Assembly (NCBI GenBank): GCA_951406725.2
Contig: OX597816.1
Coordinates: forward strand, 165,540,001 to 165,604,000
Direction of reading: 5' to 3'
Length of the DNA stretch: 64,000 nt
From: Octopus vulgaris
Lineage: Eukaryota
In this document: positions 40,901 through 59,932 of the stretch, one piece after another
Numbering within the stretch: the stretch's first letter is position 1
Layout of the letters: every line of letters starts with the position of its first letter
Notes under the pieces: generated by a model
Database searches by the model: none
What the model saw: the letters and a program-made list of their open reading frames with translations, nothing else
What the model was told of the DNA's origin: nothing
Program-made: the position numbers and the translations under genes

Positions 40901-41239
40901 ACCTAACAGTGCATAGTAACTGCACTTGAGATGGCCACAACAAAGAATGCCTAGTATCTGCAACCATAGAAGAGATAACTACTCTGAAATGCTAGCATCT
41001 CACAGTCTAGGTAGATGGCACTGTGAGCTGATCTAGATGTATAAACACCATTTGTCAACAAATGAGATATATACTCTGTGACAAAATGCAGTGAGTAGCT
41101 TGTTCCCCAGTTCGAATGTGCATTAAGCATATTCAGACTTGTAATAACATTAGTTTTACTTGTCACTGTTTAGTGCTCCCCATCCACCTTTGATCACAGG
41201 TCTTCTGAATCAGGCTGACCTGTGATTAAATATAACTGG

Positions 41240-41590
41240 AGGTAGCAAGGGGCTATGTTTATGGCCTTTACAATATCTCTGGGGAGATCTCTGCAGTTAA
41301 CAAGAAAAAGAATATACAGGGAAGAACGTAAAAAGTAAATACAGGGAAGAAAAGTATATACAGAGAGGAAGCCCAGTACAGACTTAGTTGAGGGCTTGAT
41401 TTTGGACACAATGAGTAAGAGAAGGAGAGAAACAAAGGAGTGAGGAATATCCGAACGGAAGTGGAATGAGCCCAGATGGTTCCGAGAAGCAGAGGCCAAC
41501 ATCAATCAGTCGAACAACCATTCTTTGGATGCTGACTAAGATGTCTGTGTGTCTAGCAGCACTGTTTGCTCCAAAGATGAACATCGCTAA
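41240..41590 (-). mobile_element. Degenerate LINE (CR1/L2-group) ORF2 3' fragment
   Basis: AARHTDILVSIQRMVVRLI and LPRDIVKAIN resemble post-RT C-terminal LINE motifs; frameshifted. Confidence 0.45.
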
Positions 41591-42715
41591 TATTATTACC
41601 AATGCTATGATTGATGCAATAAATTAAATTCTCTTTCGAGAGAACACATACCATCTTCATTCTTCAACTTATATTTACCTCAAGCGATAAGAAATGAATA
41701 AAAGAAAAAGGAAGAAAACAAAGAAGAGAAACGATCTAAAATTAAAACATTGACTTTGTACATTTGAGTTTGAGCATTTACGGTTAATTAATTTTTCCTG
41801 TTAAGTAATATTTTTGGAATCAGAATGTGTTGTGTAGGTGTGAGTGTGTGTAAACATAAATACATAAACGTACATACACAAAAAAGCCTGAAGAAGGTGT
41901 TGAGAATTCAACAATGCTGCGCAGATAAATCTAAGAAATAGACACAAGCATAGCTGTGTGAAGAAGCTCACTCTGTAATCATATGGTTTGGAGTTTGGTC
42001 CTAGTGCTTGGCATTTTGGACCAGTGTCTTCCACTGTAGACCTCAGACAACCAATGTCTTCTCAGTGAATTTGGCAAATAAAACTGTCTAGATGCACATC
42101 ATGTGTGTGTGTGTGTGTGCGTGCGGGCACGCTATGTAAAAAGTGCTGGTGCCATGTAAAAAGCACCCAGTACACAATAGAAAGTGGCAGGTATTAGGAA
42201 GACCATCTAGCTGTAGAAACTATGCCGAAACAGACTGTGGTACCTAGTGTGGTAGCCAGCTTTACCAGCTCCTATCAAACTGTTCAACATCACACTAGCA
42301 TGGAAAATGGACAATGTGTGTATGCATGTCTGCCTGTCTCTCCACTGCTTGACAACTAGTGTTGGTCTGTGTAAGAAATAGACACAGGCATAGCTGTGTG
42401 GTGAAGAAGCTCACTCTGCAATCATATGGAGTTTGGTCACACTGCTTGGCATTTTGGACCAGTGTCTTCCACTGTAGTTCTGAGACAACCAATGTCTTCT
42501 CAGTGAATTTGGTATCCCTGTAGACTTAACAGCTCAGCAAAAGAGACCACTAGAATACGAATCAGATTCAGGAACTAGGATCAATTTGTTCACCAAAACC
42601 TTTCAAGGCAGCACCCCAGCATGGCCGCAGTCCAATCAATGAAATAAGTAACAGTCAAAAGAAGACAGGCTGTGGCTGGAATTTCAATATACAGTGCTTT
42701 GATTTTAGATTATAC

Positions 42716-44731: not shown

Positions 44732-44777
44732 CATACAGAGAGATCTGTTAGATGTAATCAAGACAAATTAAAAAGAT
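44732..44777. repeat. Left arm of a perfect 46-bp long-range inverted repeat
   Basis: catacagagagatctgttagatgtaatcaagacaaattaaaaagat is the exact reverse complement of 49833-49878. Confidence 0.95.
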
Positions 44778-45309
44778 TACCTTGATTCATCAGGAAGAAA
44801 AAAAATGGTAAATTCTTTGTCTCACAGAAGAAGCATTTTAAGCAACGTCCAAATAAGTAGTTATTGATGCTAAAATATTTGTAGTTGTGGAAGCTGACAA
44901 GTCAATGAAATGAGAAGCAAGAATCTAGAATTCTAACAGCCACACAGTGGAAGCCAGAATATGAGAGACAACAAGATGAATAACAAAAGAAAAACAGAAG
45001 AGACTCCATTTTCTTTAATTATCATCACCATGGAAACGGAGGTATGTAATAATGGGAATGGTTAAACTGATTCAAACAATGAAATATGTCTTTCTTTTAA
45101 AGGAATTGAAAAATATTAACTTGACAGCATAAGTTTCCATGGAATTCATATGAAATGGCTGGCACTTATTCTATTGATACATAAAAGGATAAAGATTTAA
45201 AAAAAAAACGACTCCAGCAGAATCTGAACTTGGAATCAAAATTTTTTTCGTATTGTTCCAATTCTACTGTAAGGTGTACTTTTGAATAATAGAAACAATA
45301 ATAATAATT

Positions 45310-46100
45310 TCTACTATTGGCCCAAGGGCTGAAATTTTGGGGGAGAGGTTAAGTCAATAACATCGACCCCCTCAGTACTCAACTTGGACTGAATTTAATG
45401 ACCACGAAAAAGGCTAAAAGGTAAAGTGCATCTTGGAAGAATTTGAACTCAGAATGTAAAGACAGACGAAATACCTGATTCTTTACTGCCCACAAGAGGC
45501 TACACACAAAGGGGACAAACAAGGACAGACAAACGGATTAAGTTGATTATATCGACCCCAATGTGCAACTGGTACTTATTTAATTGACCCCGAAAGGATG
45601 AAAGGCAAAGTCAACCTTGGCGGAATTTGAACACAGAATGTTAAGACAGATGAAATACCATCAAGCGTGCTAACGTTTCTGCCAACTCAATGCCTTAAGA
45701 AAAATAATTTCAAAATTTGGCACAAGGCCAGCAATTTTAGGAGAGGGAACAAGTTGATTACATCGATCCCCAGTGTTCAACTGGTACTCATTTTAGCAAC
45801 CCCAAGAGGACAAAAGGCAAAGTTGGCCTTGGCAGAATTTGAACTCAGAATGTAGACATGAAATGCCGTTAATCATTTTGCCCAGTATGCTAATGATTCT
45901 GCCAGCTTGCTGCCCCAAGTGCAATGAGAATAATCCTTACTACTATAGGCACAAGGCCTGAAATTTTGTGGGGAGGGGCTAATTGATTACATCGACCCCA
46001 GTGTTCCACTGGTACTTATTTCATCAACCCCAAGGGAATAAAAGACAAAGTTGACCTCAGCGGAATTTAAAAATATACAAACCCAAAAGAAATGTCACCA
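45310..46100 (-). mobile_element. Cluster of about four tandem or nested SINE family B copies
   Basis: Repeated atcgacccc...aaggcaaag...gaatttgaactcagaa blocks. Confidence 0.8.
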
Positions 46101-46384
46101 AGTATTTTGTTCGATGCATTAGTTATTCTGATATCTTCCACAACTAAATACAGCACACTACTAACCTTTCAATTAATACTACTAGCCCCCCCATACATCC
46201 CATAAACCATTCGCATTACAGATTTATATCTACCCTAATTGCACCAAATCCAGAACTTCTTACCTCCCTTACACATAATCTTTTTACTCAGGGACTAGTA
46301 GACCCAACTCTGTTCGGTAATCGGTGCGCATTCAAAGCAGTATGCTTTTGAATCTCTTTAACAATTCACAATAATGACTTTTAT

Positions 46385-46434
<50 letters not shown>

Positions 46435-47459
46435 TTGTATGTGTTGGTCCCCCACCACTGCATGACACCAATGTTGGTGCGTCTATGTCCCTGTAACCTA
46501 GTGGTTCGGCAAAAGAGGCCAATAGTCTTGGGGGTTAATTTGTTCAACTAAAGGTGGTGCTCCAGCATGGCCACATTCATGAACCCAGTACAGGGTCATT
46601 TCACATCTAGCAATAGTGAATGAAAACAGAAACATTTGAAACGGTGAACAAGCATGCTGTAAGACTCATTTCAAGAGTGAAAAAAAAAACCCATATTAAG
46701 CATAGTTTTTATCAGGGCAACTGTCGAGGGGAGGGTCATCAGGGTCCCTTAGCTGTGGTGGCAAGGTGTAACTCAATATCACTGTATTTAATGTTTACTT
46801 TTGGGAGGAGTTTATTGGGGTAGATCTTCTATGGCTGCATGCAAGGTAATACTTCCGCACTCCAGCTATGCTCAGATATGGTTTTGCCAAATATTAAAAA
46901 CAAATCACATGTTACAAATATTCCACAGTGTCAAGACAATGAAACACAAACATACACGGGCTTCTTTTAGTTCCCATCAACCAGACAACTCATGAGGTTT
47001 TGATAAGCCAGGTGCTATGCAGTGGGACAGAACCTGAAACCATGTGGTTGGAAAACTAACTCTCTAACTACATAACCATGCTTCTGTCTAGTAAGAATGT
47101 ACTGAATGTCAATACATATATATATCTAATCTTTGTGATGAAGTATAGAGCAGTGATACACAACAGCATTCAAGAAGACAAGTACCAGAAGTCCATACCG
47201 AAGTTTTGGCAGCCCATACAAAGAAAGTTGATGAATCTTCTACATATGACAGATGTGGTTGTGTGATTAAGATGACTGCTTCAAAACCATGTGGTACCTT
47301 GGGCAAGTGTATTCTATAGCCCTAGTCCAACCAAAATCTTGTGACTCCATTTGGAAGAGAGAAAATAAAAGAAACTCATGGCATATGTGTGTGTGTGTGC
47401 ATATTTATATATATATATATATATTCGAGCAAATGGAAAGTGCTGAGTGGTCAAACATT

Positions 47460-47796
47460 TAAACCAAATTTTCTTAAAACAACTTGTCCGACTGTCCCAT
47501 AGGCCTCCCCTTTCAGAAACACTGATTTAACCTAAATTTGAGATACCAGCAAAAGAAGAAATAAAGGTAGACTTTTTTCTATTCCAAGAAAAACGATTTT
47601 ACAAATGCGTGTTCCTATGGCTTTATTGATCGCATTCTCACCTGGAATCAATTTTTGTAATTTTTTCAAGACTTTTACACGCCCTGATACCGTCGGTATC
47701 TACATATCAAATTTGAGCAGAATCAGATGGAGGATGCCCGAGATCCTAGAAGACACACACACACACAGACAGACAGAACAGATTTTATATAATAGA
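47460..47796 (-). mobile_element. Helitron-type non-autonomous element, 5' part
   Basis: Minus strand begins A|TCTATTATATAAAATCTGTTCTGTCTGTCTGTGTGTG. Confidence 0.55.
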
Positions 47797-48071
47797 TATA
47801 TATTATCTTGATCAGTCAACATCCATGCTGGCATGTGTGCGTCTACTTCTTTTGATATCACATGATAGTTGTAAACAAGCATTGTTCATATCCAATCTTT
47901 CACAGAAGACATATCTTGACAGGGAAATATTAATTTGTCTTGGAACAGGTGAAGGTTGGCAACAGGAAAGGCATCTGACAATAGAAAATCTGCCTCAATA
48001 AATTGTCAGATCCTTACAAGCAAGCAAAAAGTGGAGATTAAAACAACGATAAAGATGGGAACAATCTAATG

Positions 48072-48414
48072 CAGTGTTTGTCAACCAGGGCTACCTGGGA
48101 CCTTAGGGTTCCGTAAAAGGTTCCTCAAAAAAGAGTGAAATAAGCCAACACTAATTTCGTGATCCTAATATTACTATACATGCACAACATGTTGGTTATT
48201 GTAATATACATATCATCCTATCTAACCAATTATGTTATCAAAAAAATATAACAACCACATATATATATATATATATATATGATATTTACCATGTGAATTA
48301 TGATTTTTAAAAAATGAAAGATACGGTATATAAATTTTTTTTGGTGCAGGGATTCCTTGAGACATAAAATTTATTTTATGGGTTACGGAAGGATAAAAAG
48401 GTTTAGAACCAGTG
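48072..48414. mobile_element. hAT MITE
   Basis: cagtgtttgtcaacc / ggtttagaaccagtg ends; flanks atctaatg / gtctaatg (7 of 8 match). Confidence 0.75.
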
Positions 48415-48637
48415 GTCTAATGTTTAAATTAATTGAAATTAAATGTACATGTGTCTTACTAGACAATGTATGGTTATTTTTATTATTATTATTATTTTCA
48501 TTTTAATTCAAATATTTATATCTCACAGTGTTGTTGTATAATGTAATCAGAAGTTAATTTATATTTGGTGATCCATGAAAATCTCATGGACATTATGGCT
48601 CACTCTCTGAAAGAGTTGGTCTATCAATACTGTAGAC

Positions 48638-48919
48638 CAGTGGATCCCAAAGTTGGTGGTATTCCCCCCACCCCAAGTCTGTGGAAAGTTCCAAGGGGTG
48701 TTGAAGAAATGTGAAGCGATAATGGGGTGACAATTAATGTAAAAGTAACAATATAATGGGTTCGTTAGGTTAAGTTTTTTTTTTATTTTGTGAAATACAG
48801 TTGCTTTGAATTTGCTTTGCAAAGGTCTATGTTTGTGATGGTTAGTTGGGATGGGGGTGCTAGAAATGTGGCCTGGGTGTCAAGGGGGGCAGCAGCCCGA
48901 AAATGTTTTGGAACTACTA
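48638..48919. mobile_element. hAT MITE with a perfect 8-bp target-site duplication
   Basis: ctgtagac on both sides; cagtggatcccaaa / tttggaactacta ends. Confidence 0.85.
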
Positions 48920-49832
48920 CTGTAGACTGCAGAAGGATGACTTTACCCAGTACTTCTCAAGTAGGATCCACATATGATTTTGTTAAAATTTATGTGCAAT
49001 AAACTGATTATAACAATACACAAAATATTTTAGCATGATTTTGATACAATTTCTAATAATATTTAATTACAAAAATGCCATTTTTTAAAAAACATTGAAT
49101 GCTTATTAGGGTCCAGTACAGTAAAATAGGCATCAAAGATGTTGGTAGGCAAAAAAAGGGGGTTGAGAAACCCTGACTTAATCCATAACCTGATTTAACA
49201 CCACCACCATTGGGTCTTTGGATTACCCCCAGTAGAGCCCTATTTGTAGCTAACATTCAGGCCAGAACCTCAGGTTGTTGATAATTATTTCTTCCTTTTG
49301 TTCTACTAATCACAAAGACCACTCTGGAAGGATCACAAACAGGACCCTTTTTCTTTGAAGTAAGCCATTCAATAAAGTTTAAAAAAATAAAACAAACAGG
49401 CCAGTGCCCTAGCATGACCACAGCTTATGACCTGTAACAAGTAAAAGGTAAGTCAATCTTAAATACACGAAAATTAATTAGACTTTGCACTAAACTCGGC
49501 CAGTTACTTTCAGGTAGAATAACAAAGCAAAAGTTGTCAACAGATTTTTCAAAACAATAGATTCCAGCTTAAAAGAAACAATGCGTTTCAGATTTTTTTT
49601 TCTTTCTAGTTTTCAACTTTTCTAGAGGAGGTTTAACAACTTTTATTTATAACATGGCCTTTGTTTTGAATTCTACTCCTCAATCTATGAAGGGGAGGAG
49701 GTACGAAAAGACGCCTAGCTTCACGACAGTCTTTCTCTTCATTCCCTAATAAGACTTTTTTTTCAAGTAAAGAGCAACCAAATCACCCCCAAAATAAATC
49801 TTTTCAAAGCACCAACTAATGTGGTTTTAGAC

Positions 49833-49878
49833 ATCTTTTTAATTTGTCTTGATTACATCTAACAGATCTCTCTGTATG
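49833..49878. repeat. Right arm of the perfect 46-bp long-range inverted repeat
   Basis: atctttttaatttgtcttgattacatctaacagatctctctgtatg; 46/46 complementary to 44732-44777. Confidence 0.95.
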
Positions 49879-51342
49879 AACTGGCATTGAGACTGCTGGA
49901 TGAGATTTGACCTAGGGCTATATCGAACACACACTTCTGAATTCATATGTATGTGTGCGTGTGTGTCTTTTATTGGTTACTTATTTGTCATTCGACTGCG
50001 CCCATGCTGGGGCACTACCTTGAAGAATTTTTAGTCAAACAAATCGACCCCAGGACTTTTAGTTTTTTTTAAATACTTAGTACTTATTCTATCCATCTCT
50101 TTTGCCAAAACACTAAGTTAAAGGGACGTAAACATAGCAACACCAGTTACCAAGCGGTGGTGGGGAACAAACACACACACACGTGCTGCTTTCGGTTTCC
50201 AGCTACCAAATCAAACAAGGAAATTCCTGCCCAAGTGTCACGCAGAGGGACTGAACCCGGAACCATGTAGTTGGAAAGCGAACTTCTTAGGGGTGAAAAT
50301 GAGAGTATTTCCACCCCTAATTTTATGTTTTCTACCGATATTAAAACTGTAGACGATACGGACTAACATTAATATGAACCAGACATACTATTATTATTGT
50401 TATTACTATCGTTATTATATGGAGCAACAAGACTTCAGGCATCAATCTGTATGAACAAGGCACACCACGAACATATGGATTGTAAAAAATACAATGAAAA
50501 ATAGTCGACCAACTTGCATTGAATGGTGATATAAAAACCTGATTGAAGCCACGAACACATTGCAAATACATACATGGGCACACACCAGAAGCAAGCCGAA
50601 ACGAAGTCCCTAACAGGCTTTTCATTGAAAAAAGGTTATACATATAAAATGGAGGCAGCACACACACTCAACAAGCTAGAAATAGCAGCCAAATTTCCCT
50701 ATAAACACATCCTGCCAAATAGAAATGATACAGTCCGAGACTGTCTATATACCCGGCTTACCCCCACCCCTCAAAAGACGGATGTAATATCTCTGAACGT
50801 AAAAAGTCTGCTCGATCAGAAATCGACTGGGGATCATAACAATCGCAAAAATGTTCCGAGATCTATAAATCCAAGCGATTTTGGAGTGGTGCTGGCCTGT
50901 AGAGAGGGAGTCCAGGGGCCGCCAATCCACAGACAATATATAAAACTATGAGTGGTGATGGTCAATAGAGTTCAGTGACCGACCTACTAACAACAGCAGC
51001 TACAACAATATGCCGCGTGGATTATATACGTGCACACGCAGAGCAAGAAAAGAAACAAGGCAAAGTTTTAGCAGTTTGATGGATATCGAGAAAGTCATTA
51101 AAAACAAGCAATTTTTTTTTTTTTTCAACATTAGAATTATACACACATATATAACTGCGAGCGAGATAGAAAGAAAGAGACAGTGTGTGTGTTTGTGTGC
51201 AATTTGGTGAATGAGTTTATGAAAAAAGAGGAAATGTACTCAATATGTAGTATTTGTATATCTTATTAAAAACTGAAGATTAGCGAATTGTTCATTTGAC
51301 TTTCACGTTGTCGATTATCGTTTGTTTGTGTGTGTGTGTGTG

Positions 51343-52681: not shown

Positions 52682-52750
52682 CTTGATATCTTTTTCTAAG
52701 ATCGCAGCCGATGGCCTCCGCGTTCGACTTAACATCGGAACTAAAGACAT
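52682..52750 (-). CDS. Putative first coding exon of an unidentified split gene (MSLVPMLSRTRRPSAAILEKDIK, 23 codons, phase 0)
   Basis: ATG with G at -3 and an in-frame TGA 12 nt upstream; 69-nt open frame ending AAG|GTGAGG (strong donor); lies in a repeat-poor, CpG-richer island. Product not recognised. Confidence 0.65.
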
Positions 52751-52897: not shown

Positions 52898-53171
52898 AGT
52901 ATGTGTATATGAGAAGAAAGGAGCTTGGTCCTTGCACTGGTAGAGCTAACCACGCTCAGGTCGTTTATATATCCACACACATGACGATGACACTGTGTAT
53001 GGAGAAGTGAAAAGACTGGAGTTTCAAAGGCATGGACCGACTCGATGTGAATGAAGAGAAAGAATATCTCTCGCTGAAGTTGTTAACAGTTGTAAGTCCC
53101 CTTACAGTCAATACTACTGCTGCTGCTGCTGTTGTTAAGAAATACACAACTCAATTAGAAACCCCTTCTCT

Positions 53172-53202
<31 letters not shown>

Positions 53203-53900
53203 ATTCACTCTCTCGCCCACTCTTTAAAACATTCACTCAACTAATTCGATAACTCTCTCTCTCTCTCTATCTATCACCCACATACTCTCATCTACTAATT
53301 AAATCTTCCTCTCTTTCTCTCACACACACACAATCACTCTCTTGCTCACAAATACGATCACTCCCTCTCTCTTACACACTTACTCGCTCACACTTTCACA
53401 CACACACACACACACTTACTCGCTCACACTTTCACACACACACACTTACTCGCTCACACTTTCACACACACACACTTACTCGCTCACACTTTCACACACA
53501 CACTTACTCGCTCACTCTTTCATACACACACACACACACACTTACTCTCTCACTCTTTCACACACATTCACTAATTAAATCTCTCTCTCTCTCCCGCGCT
53601 ATTGTCTATCTCTCCTCCTCCTCCTCTCTCACTGCTTAAGGGCGAGTCACTCCATCGACTCACAAACATAAATCCTAACAGCAAAGTAACAGGATCAGCG
53701 AAGTCAGTAGTAACGTGAACAGCCGTTTATAGCAGTAAATGACTATTTTCTGAAGGGTTCACCCTCCTCCTACACACAAGAGTTGTTGGCTTATTTTCTT
53801 TCGTACTGTATTTTTTTCTTTTCTTTTCCATCATTCGCCCACCACTTTTCATTCATCGGAATCCAACGGTGAATATTGCATAAGAATATCGGACCCAACG
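52751..53900 (-). promoter_or_regulatory. Probable 5' UTR / promoter region of the minus-strand gene
   Basis: SINE-free interval directly upstream of the ATG with (GA)n and (GT)n tracts and elevated CpG; a possible acceptor (ccag|ACATG) sits 2 nt before the ATG. TSS cannot be located. Confidence 0.4.
53372..53566. repeat. Minisatellite of about six 28-38-bp units (cacacttactcgctcacactttcaca)
   Basis: ACTTAC cores start at 53378, 53414, 53444, 53474, 53502 and 53540. Confidence 0.9.
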
Positions 53901-57034: not shown

Positions 57035-57405
57035 CCGGGAAGGATTTGTACCAAACTGGCATTGAGAGTTACACAAACAACAGATCTTTGCTTAGTGCCA
57101 AAGATCCCAGTATCGCAATCAAGATACAGGACCAAATACTGCAACAGCCTGTGTTTCAAGGGCCCACAGCTCCTCCATATCTTTCACCAAAAGCCTTAGA
57201 GACTTACATTGAGTGAATGTAGGTGTCTTCAAAACAAAAGTGAAACTCCTTCCTATCAAGGGTTCCGGATGAGCTTACTCAAGGAAACGCAGATAAGGAC
57301 AGCAGCATCAAACACACTCATTCGCCAACTGAGGCTTCAAGTAGAGGTGTAGCAATGCTAATAGCGGTGCCCCAACATGGCCGCAACTCTCGAGCAGAAA
57401 CTGGG
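57035..57405 (+). mobile_element. CR1-group (L2/Crack-like) LINE 3' end
   Basis: CLVPKIP..SRYRTKYCNSLCFKGPQL..LRDL..VFKTK..RVPDE..AASNTL (with frameshifts), followed by a gcggtgccccaacatggccgca tail. Confidence 0.7.
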
Positions 57406-57419
57406 TACAAAGTTTTATA

Positions 57420-57658
57420 CAGTAAGCCCTCGACTATTGCAGGTTTTACGTTCCAAAACCTCACAAAGAAATAATTAAAATCTAAAAAAATATAAATACC
57501 TATCGGTCGCAGAAACCCGGAAATACTGAGGAGACCGCGATATAAATTTAAATATATTAGTCAGAAATACTCGCGACGTACTGAGTGCGCGTTATGTGAA
57601 CCGCGACGAATTGAGTGCGCGATAGGTGAACCGCGACGTATTGAGTGCGCGATTACTG
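57420..57658. mobile_element. Tigger/pogo-type MITE with three ~30-bp subterminal tandem units
   Basis: TA|CAGTA...TACTG|TA; repeated cgcgacg.a.tgagtgcgcg. Relatives at 9630-9815 and about 63580-63665. Confidence 0.8.
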
Positions 57659-58782: not shown

Positions 58783-59280
58783 TCAGGTTATCCCATAAGT
58801 TCTGTCCGATTTTACCTTTTTAAAAATTGAATTAAATTTTATAGTATTTTAGAATGTCTAATGGAATTTAAAATTATTTTTATGCATTTGTGTACATTTA
58901 AACTAATTAAATATTATTTTAGAGAATAATAGAATTAAAATTTATTTGATTAAAACCCTTTATAACAAGGAAGTATCCAAAGAGCATTTAAGGCACATAA
59001 TGCTTTATGAGTACACAAAAGGAAACTTTGCAGCCGAAGCGATCGAAACATACACTCAGTTTATGGGAAAGAATGCTTGAATGAAAGAACTTGCAGAAGA
59101 TGGTTTGCAAAATTCAGAAATGGAGATTTCAGCCTTGAAGATGAAGATCTAACAGGACGTCCAGTTGAGTTTGATGATAAGATCCTTGAGGCATTACTTA
59201 AAGAAGATCCTGCATTATTAGTTGAAGAAATGGCAATAAAGCTTACTTAAAACCATACAACTAACTGTTCATCGTCATCT
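58783..59280 (+). mobile_element. Mariner transposon 5' remnant (TIR and degenerate N-terminal HTH of the transposase)
   Basis: TA|TCAGGTTATCCCATAAGTTCTGTCCG end; LRHIMLYEYTKG..YGKECLNERTCRRWFAKFRNGDFSLEDEDLTGRP..LEALLKEDP with a frameshift; truncated. Confidence 0.9.
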
Positions 59281-59562: not shown

Positions 59563-59932
59563 TATTTCTTTACTACCCACAAGGGGCTAAACACAGAGAG
59601 GACAAACAAGGACAGACAAACAGATTAAGTCGATTATATCGACCCCAGTGCGTAACTGGTACTTATTTAATCGACCCCGAAAGGATGAAAGGCAAAGTCG
59701 ACCTCGGCGGAATTTGAACTCAGAACGTGAAGGGGCTAAACACAGAGGGGACAAACAAGGACAGACATAGGTATTAAGTCGATTATCGACCCCAGTGCGT
59801 AACTGGTACTTAATTAATCGACCCCGAAAGGATGAAAGGCAAAGTCGACCTCGACGGAATTTAAACTCACAACGTAACGACAGACGAAATACCGCTAACA
59901 TTTCGCCCGGCTTGCTAACGTCTCTGCCAGCT
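59563..59932 (-). mobile_element. Tandem dimer of SINE family B
   Basis: The block aaggggctaaacacagag...gaactca occurs twice head-to-tail. Confidence 0.85.

What the first reader, a model, noticed from the sequence alone, without database searches (positions are those of the whole stretch)
44732..49878. Perfect 46-bp inverted repeat, arms 5 kb apart, masking a candidate 5' splice site
Seen: 44732-44777 and 49833-49878 are exact reverse complements (46/46) in non-microsatellite sequence not repeated elsewhere in the window, with no target-site duplication. On the minus-strand pre-mRNA the downstream arm covers positions +4 to +49 of a candidate donor, ATCAAG|GTAATC (GT at 44780-44779). Inference: a long-range RNA duplex could hide this donor (an alternative leader or cryptic exon) or act as an ADAR editing-complementary sequence. 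A recent templated insertion from DNA repair is an equally plausible origin.
Basis: partly seen in the sequence, partly recalled or inferred. Interest (0 to 1): 0.75.

Follow-up and report, generated by a model that had tools for sequence, protein, structure and literature searches.

The report
Recent inverted DNA-repair patch, not regulator
The perfect mirror repeat exists because a 46-base piece of old DNA was recently copied backwards into a spot 5 kb away, where other individuals and related species still carry a different short sequence, so it is likely a scar of DNA repair rather than a splicing switch.

Summary
The 46/46 inverted repeat is real and has exactly two copies in the 2.8-Gb genome. 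Only the left arm (44732-44777) is old. Of 6 public runs laid, 1 (X1, possibly the assembly's own sample) holds the right arm. Three (same species label, plus two other organisms) read straight across the site, with 19 other bases in place of 57 reference bases. A fourth leaves the reference at the same base; the fifth lacks the arm only by indirect evidence. The flanks are colinear, so this is neither an inversion nor a transposon. The 12 inserted bases outside the arm match a second site 7.2 kb away on the other side. This is a young delins built from one certain and one probable distant template, with junctions of 0-3 shared bases: a template-switch or theta-type repair scar. The candidate donor is ordinary and is predicted to be buried already in a local hairpin that needs no far arm. 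No RNA was laid, so an incidental effect of the new allele remains untested. The scan noted similar scars in other genomes.

The parts
44732..44777 (+). Ancestral template 1 (left arm); continues a CA/GA microsatellite-like run on its left and unique sequence on its right
   Evidence: Contigs of X2 (label A) and X12 (organism E, about 95% identical) run from 44742 into the interior without a break (records 10 and 1)
49833..49878 (-). Derived inverted copy of template 1 (right arm); base 49833 is shared with the ancestral flank
   Evidence: Present with both junctions in X1 only; X3, X4 and X12 leave the reference after 49833 and carry other letters; X8 also stops at 49833
49879..49890 (+). Second inserted piece, 12 bp, absent from the ancestral allele
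   Evidence: Joint 49833->49891 'skips 57' with 19 letters between in X3 and X12
57054..57067 (+). Probable template 2: exact 14-bp direct match to 49879-49892 (the 12 inserted bases plus 2 flank bases), 7.2 kb away, in a stretch that looks like a decayed LINE (recalled; no Pfam hit)
   Evidence: the 14-mer has 12 copies genome-wide, control 10; chance estimates 0.03-3%
44778..49832 (.). Ordinary spacer, about one third old SINE-like repeats; unique parts are present in relatives; not a mobile unit
   Evidence: Best repeat matches 75-87%; pieces laid in X2, X4, X8, X12
44751..44791 (-). Local 15-bp hairpin, predicted to pair the candidate donor from -11 to +4 with the inside of the left arm
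   Evidence: -12.9 kcal/mol, z -2.4, 5 of 200 shuffles as good (window chosen after seeing it); unpaired probability <=0.13 over 44790-44777
44775..44783 (-).
   Evidence: 8 of 11 matches to a U1-type consensus; 117 minus-strand GT sites score >=8; upstream acceptors give no exon that is open in phase 0
52682..52750 (-). Candidate first coding exon (23 codons, then GTGAG) of an unidentified host gene; the only sequence basis for a minus-strand pre-mRNA
   Evidence: not confirmed by homology or RNA

Best explanation
The right arm is a young insertion allele, in which 19 ancestral bases after 49833 are replaced by 57 bases, 45 of them an inverted copy of a site 5.06 kb to the left and 12 likely copied from a site 7.2 kb to the right, most likely by a polymerase that switched templates while repairing a break or stalled fork in the germ line. 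Shown: the two alleles, the direction of change (outgroup), template 1, and colinear flanks. Inferred: template 2, a single event, and the enzyme (theta-mediated end joining or MMBIR-type switching cannot be told apart here). Read as one block, the junctions share 1, 0 and 2 bases. The ancestral 19 bases start ATGA, the same four bases that span the end of the arm and the start of piece 2. The allele can therefore also be parsed as two short excursions with 1, 3, 1 and 2 shared bases at the four switch points (post hoc). The inverted repeat is a by-product and probably neutral.
For:: X3 (label A) and X12 (organism E) join 49833->49891 with 19 letters between; X4 (organism B) has the same letters; X1 has both junctions of the arm. 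X8 (organism D) fits to 49833 and goes on unlike the arm; the left arm is contiguous in X2 and X12. The arms are 46/46 identical, and X3 has 0 differences in 419 flank bases, so the allele is young. Two copies only. Template 2: the 14-mer begins exactly where the arm ends and covers all unexplained bases; it occurs at chance level genome-wide (12 vs control 10). POLQ_helical matches on 2 contigs show that the domain family is encoded (it does not prove POLQ). Same signature in print: complex germline multi-template insertions (PMC8421209, section 10 part 1); delins with inserts from distant sites, about 3% (PMC5068794 passage).
Against: Only 1 carrier was seen, and it may be the assembly's source, so allele frequency is unknown. 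Species labels are coded and label A could hide cryptic species. Contigs, not raw reads, were laid. Template 2 is short: in an empirical null, 28 of 1023 12-mers and 5 of 1023 14-mers recur in the window, 2 of 40 random spans reached 14 or more, and PMC5453318 warns that matches under 12-13 bp arise by chance. Templates 5-7 kb away are unusual: most theta-type inserts map next to the break. Microhomologies of 1-3 nt are weak on their own. The copy ends within 4 nt of a donor-like GT, a 0.8-6% coincidence that this model explains only through the local hairpin or chance.
Confidence: 0.86

Rival explanations
1. A selected long-range RNA duplex that masks the 44781 donor or serves as an ADAR editing-complementary sequence.
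For: If both arms are in one transcript the duplex is strong in silico: -71.5 kcal/mol alone, about -46 net of local folds before a loop cost of about 13. The arm ends at +4 of a donor-like site (chance 0.8-6%).
Against: The right arm is absent in 3 other organisms and in at least 1 run of the same label. There are no compensatory changes. The donor is predicted to be paired locally without the far arm. There are 33 other inverted pairs of >=40 nt within 6 kb of each other in the window (67-96% identical), so dsRNA potential is not special here. No coding exon lies in either arm.
Confidence: 0.04
2. RNA-templated patch: the 5' end of intron RNA cut at the 44781 donor was reverse-transcribed into a break 5 kb upstream in the same transcription unit.
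For: The copied stretch stops at +4/+5 of the donor-like GT (0.1-0.7% for one specified end, 0.8-6% over four end/strand tests). Class 2 TSIPs are proposed to be cDNA patches (PMC5110952 passages).
Against: The first three intron bases are missing. Orientation does not discriminate, because either break end could prime. The probable second template lies on the other strand, beyond the candidate first exon. The hairpin loop gives a DNA-level reason for this boundary. Donor use is unshown.
Confidence: 0.06
3. Inverted duplication left at the breakpoints of a 5-kb inversion.
For: Staggered-break inversions leave inverted duplications (own knowledge).
Against: X3, X4 and X12 contigs join the interior directly to the right outer flank in reference orientation.
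Confidence: 0.01
4. Terminal inverted repeats of a 5.1-kb DNA transposon (with a hidden TA target duplication).
For: The arms start CA-TA-CAG, like a TA target plus a Tc1/mariner end (recalled).
Against: Two copies only. Relatives keep the interior and the left arm and lack only the right arm, so there is no empty site. The interior is old host DNA.
Confidence: 0.01
5. Assembly or polishing artefact.
For: Seen in one run only.
Against: Logan contigs of X1, assembled separately from the reference, hold both junctions with 0 differences at depth 62 and 86. They break 30 bases into the 46-mer, as expected for a two-copy repeat.
Confidence: 0.02

Closest known systems
Complex germline MMB-TI (microhomology-mediated templated insertion) events in humans, PMC8421209 (passages and section 10 part 1 read)
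   Same: Heritable short insertion with replacement, an inverted first template then a forward template, junction microhomology, no gross rearrangement; 33 and 26 complex events in two people.
   Different: Their search took templates within 100 bp; here the templates are 5.06 kb and (probably) 7.2 kb away, on opposite sides, in an invertebrate.
Polymerase theta-mediated end joining delins with templated inserts, PMC5068794, PMC4490562, PMC5730883 (passages read)
   Same: Small deletion (19 bp, or 15 in the alternative parse) plus insert, 1-nt homology, no target duplication; such scars are reported among natural-isolate indels.
   Different: Most inserts map next to the break; about 3% map to distant sites (PMC5068794). 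Dependence on POLQ cannot be tested here.
Class 2 templated sequence insertion polymorphism (TSIP), PMC5110952 (passages read)
   Same: Polymorphic patch from elsewhere in the genome, donor intact, microdeletion and microhomology, no TSD and no poly(A).
   Different: The template is local (kb) and 46 bp; an RNA intermediate is not shown.
Four-point template switch, PMC5453318 (passages read)
   Same: Reverse-complement copying creates a new perfect inverted repeat; young, often polymorphic.
   Different: That model is explicitly short-range and single-round; this event is long-range and probably has two rounds.

Membership tests
Templated insertion by template switching / alternative end joining (MMB-TI, TMEJ delins, class 2 TSIP) | Insert is derived; an allele without it exists | tested here: met
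   X3, X4, X12; the most distant organism carries the short allele
Templated insertion by template switching / alternative end joining (MMB-TI, TMEJ delins, class 2 TSIP) | Insert copies an intact genomic template | tested here: met
   template 1; template 2, probable
Templated insertion by template switching / alternative end joining (MMB-TI, TMEJ delins, class 2 TSIP) | Loss of bases at the target, no TSD, no poly(A) | tested here: met
   19 ancestral letters replaced (table 5c)
Templated insertion by template switching / alternative end joining (MMB-TI, TMEJ delins, class 2 TSIP) | Microhomology at junctions | tested here: inconclusive
   1, 0, 2 nt as one block; 1, 3, 1, 2 nt in a post hoc parse (read by eye)
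TMEJ specifically | Dependence on polymerase theta; template next to the break | not testable with these tools
   POLQ_helical domain matches exist; the templates are kb away, which is atypical
Functional long-range pre-mRNA duplex / editing-complementary sequence | Both arms conserved, with compensatory changes | tested here: not met
   Right arm absent in organisms B, D, E and in run X3
Functional long-range pre-mRNA duplex / editing-complementary sequence | Donor use, editing or duplex reads in RNA | not tested
   Both read-laying runs went to DNA runs
TIR DNA transposon | Family of copies; empty site lacking the whole unit | tested here: not met
Inversion with breakpoint duplication | Interior in opposite orientation in the other allele | tested here: not met
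   colinear joint 49833->49891

The most novel reading that the evidence does not exclude
The patch was written from RNA: the 5' end of intron RNA released at the 44781 donor was reverse-transcribed into a break 5 kb upstream in its own gene. That would be a natural, heritable case of RNA-templated repair in cis in a wild animal. It would also leave carriers with a new perfect 46-bp pre-mRNA duplex, which may shift splicing or ADAR editing relative to non-carriers.
Probability: 0.06. Interest if true: 0.6.

Novelty: new member of a known kind. Interest (0 to 1): 0.18.

Why it matters
As it stands it is a clean but ordinary mutation. It shows a germ-line repair event reaching templates 5-7 kb away on both sides, farther than the usual short-range scars, and it warns that perfect unique inverted repeats in a reference genome can be young accidents rather than conserved RNA structures. 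Because carriers and non-carriers both exist, it offers a ready natural comparison of whether a brand-new perfect intronic duplex gets edited or alters splicing.

Tried and rejected
Transposon ends, inversion breakpoints and assembly artefact: rejected (see rivals). Host gene not identified. Pfam found no exon family among 26 hand-picked ORFs (one Mos1 HTH fragment, one weak SBDS_C hit). Exon scans of the window and of 200 kb to the left gave no convincing downstream exon. The candidate first exon is too short for the homologue search, and an ORF 171 kb away gave no usable hit in the protein atlas. No RNA holder listed; this is no evidence on expression, and none of the 7 runs guessed to be RNA was laid. 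One search was swamped by SINE-like repeats (over 6000 joints hidden), so only its table of pieces was used; conservation of the donor bases in organism E could not be read from it (10 of 28 differences shown). In the two-strand fold the donor paired with the cut end of the fragment, so its state with the far arm bound is unresolved. A paper search that included 'octopus' listed 12 of 124 papers, none of the 12 containing that word; this does not show absence from print. Searches were seen as listings only and not used.

Full report
Observation. The two arms are exact reverse complements over 46 bases and stop matching on both sides. The 2.80-Gb genome (227 contigs) has exactly two copies by exact pattern, by a 24-mer with two mismatches allowed, and by DNA search of either neighbourhood. 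In 264 kb around the site it is the only near-perfect two-copy short match. It is therefore not chance and not a repeat family. The window is AT-rich and about one third SINE-like repeats.

Which arm is old. I laid 6 of 24 listed public runs, all as assembled contigs. Across the whole interval (runs X2, X4, X8, X12), contigs of X2 (label A) and X12 (organism E, about 95% identical) run from 44742 inside the left arm into the interior without a break. Contigs of X4 (organism B) and X8 (organism D) fit up to 49833 and then continue with 193 and 158 letters that are not the arm. Across the right site alone (X1, X3, X4, X12), X3 and X12 join 49833 to 49891 with 19 letters between. These letters differ at 3 of 19 places between the two runs, so they are the orthologous ancestral segment. 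X4 has the same letters as X3 and resumes at 49918. X1 alone holds the arm, with both junctions, 0 differences, and contigs that end 30 bases into the 46-mer as a two-copy repeat would make them. X1 may be the assembly's own sample. It shows no ancestral joint and looks homozygous, but only about 80% of that run was read. Tally for the right arm: present in 1 of 6, directly absent in 3, absent by departure at the same base in 1, indirectly absent in 1 (X2). The most distant organism has the short allele, so the reference allele is derived. X3 has 0 differences in 419 flank bases, so it is young.

Anatomy of the allele. 57 reference bases (49834-49890) replace 19. Of these, 45 are the inverted copy of 44732-44776. 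The other 12 plus two flank bases (49879-49892) match 57054-57067 exactly, on the same strand, starting precisely where the arm ends. That 14-mer has 12 copies genome-wide against 10 for the reversed control. One of the 11 others falling inside the window has a chance of about 2.5e-4 (post hoc length). The 12-mer expectation is 0.009 and the empirical nulls are 5 and 28 of 1023; 2 of 40 random spans reached 14. I call template 2 probable, not certain. Junction overlaps are 1, 0 and 2 bases as one block, or 1, 3, 1 and 2 if the ancestral ATGA is taken as retained between two excursions (read by eye).

Mechanism. Deletion plus templated insert, intact donors, no target duplication and tiny overlaps are the signature of template switching during repair. 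PMC8421209 (section 10 part 1) describes human germline events that copy first an inverted and then forward templates, with at least 1 bp of microhomology at 138 of 155 and 135 of 148 junctions. PMC5068794 (passages) finds that about 3% of delins inserts map to distant sites and most map next to the break. PMC4490562 and PMC5730883 (passages) tie such scars to polymerase theta. PMC5110952 (passages) describes class 2 TSIPs. PMC5453318 (passages) covers the short-range version. A POLQ_helical domain is encoded on two contigs. The enzyme and a single event are inferred. Supplements of these papers were not opened.

The splice-masking idea. The only basis for a minus-strand transcript is a candidate first exon at 52750-52682; I could not identify the gene. 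The candidate donor scores 8 of 11 in a crude U1-match count, equalled or beaten by 117 minus-strand GT sites in the window, and no upstream acceptor gives an exon open in phase 0. The donor from -11 to +4 is predicted to be paired in a local 15-bp hairpin with the inside of the left arm (z -2.4; unpaired probability <=0.13). That hairpin needs only the old copy, and the far arm would compete for its 3' strand. The long-range duplex is favourable in silico, so an incidental effect in carriers is possible, but 33 other inverted pairs of >=40 nt lie within 6 kb of each other in the window. The hairpin loop, chance, or an RNA template could explain it; the last is my most novel reading (0.06). 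No RNA was laid.

Verdict. Real feature, recent two-template repair scar, new member of a known kind, interest 0.18. Earlier notes of this scan describe similar young backward copies in other genomes; my reading was fixed before I saw them.

Noticed in passing
window 49893-49917: Run X4 (organism B) lacks these 25 bases, right beside the insertion site: a second, independent lesion at the same spot.
   Followed up: no
window 44751-44791 (-): Local quasi-palindrome (15-bp hairpin) overlapping the old arm; the copied stretch ends at the top of its 5' stem.
   Followed up: partly
window 52682-52750 (-): Candidate 23-codon first exon with a GTGAG donor, downstream (minus strand) of a TC/CA-rich region at 53170-53640; gene unknown.
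   Followed up: partly
L024:1672-1944 (-), about 171 kb left of the candidate exon: 91-codon open frame that looks like another first exon (basic and Ser-rich, GTGAGT donor); no usable atlas hit.
   Followed up: partly
window 59011-59247 (+): Decayed mariner transposase fragment (Pfam HTH_48, E 1.8e-11).
   Followed up: no
window 41180-41760: Essentially single-copy stretch with open frames of 70-103 codons on both strands and no Pfam match.
   Followed up: partly
window 49644-49800: Run X2 shows two haplotypes here, one identical to the reference and one with 8 differences and a 3-base insertion.
   Followed up: no
window 59581-59875 and 57572-57653: Tandem duplication of a 147-bp SINE-like unit (92% match) and a 30-bp CpG-rich tandem repeat, 2.7 copies.
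   Followed up: no
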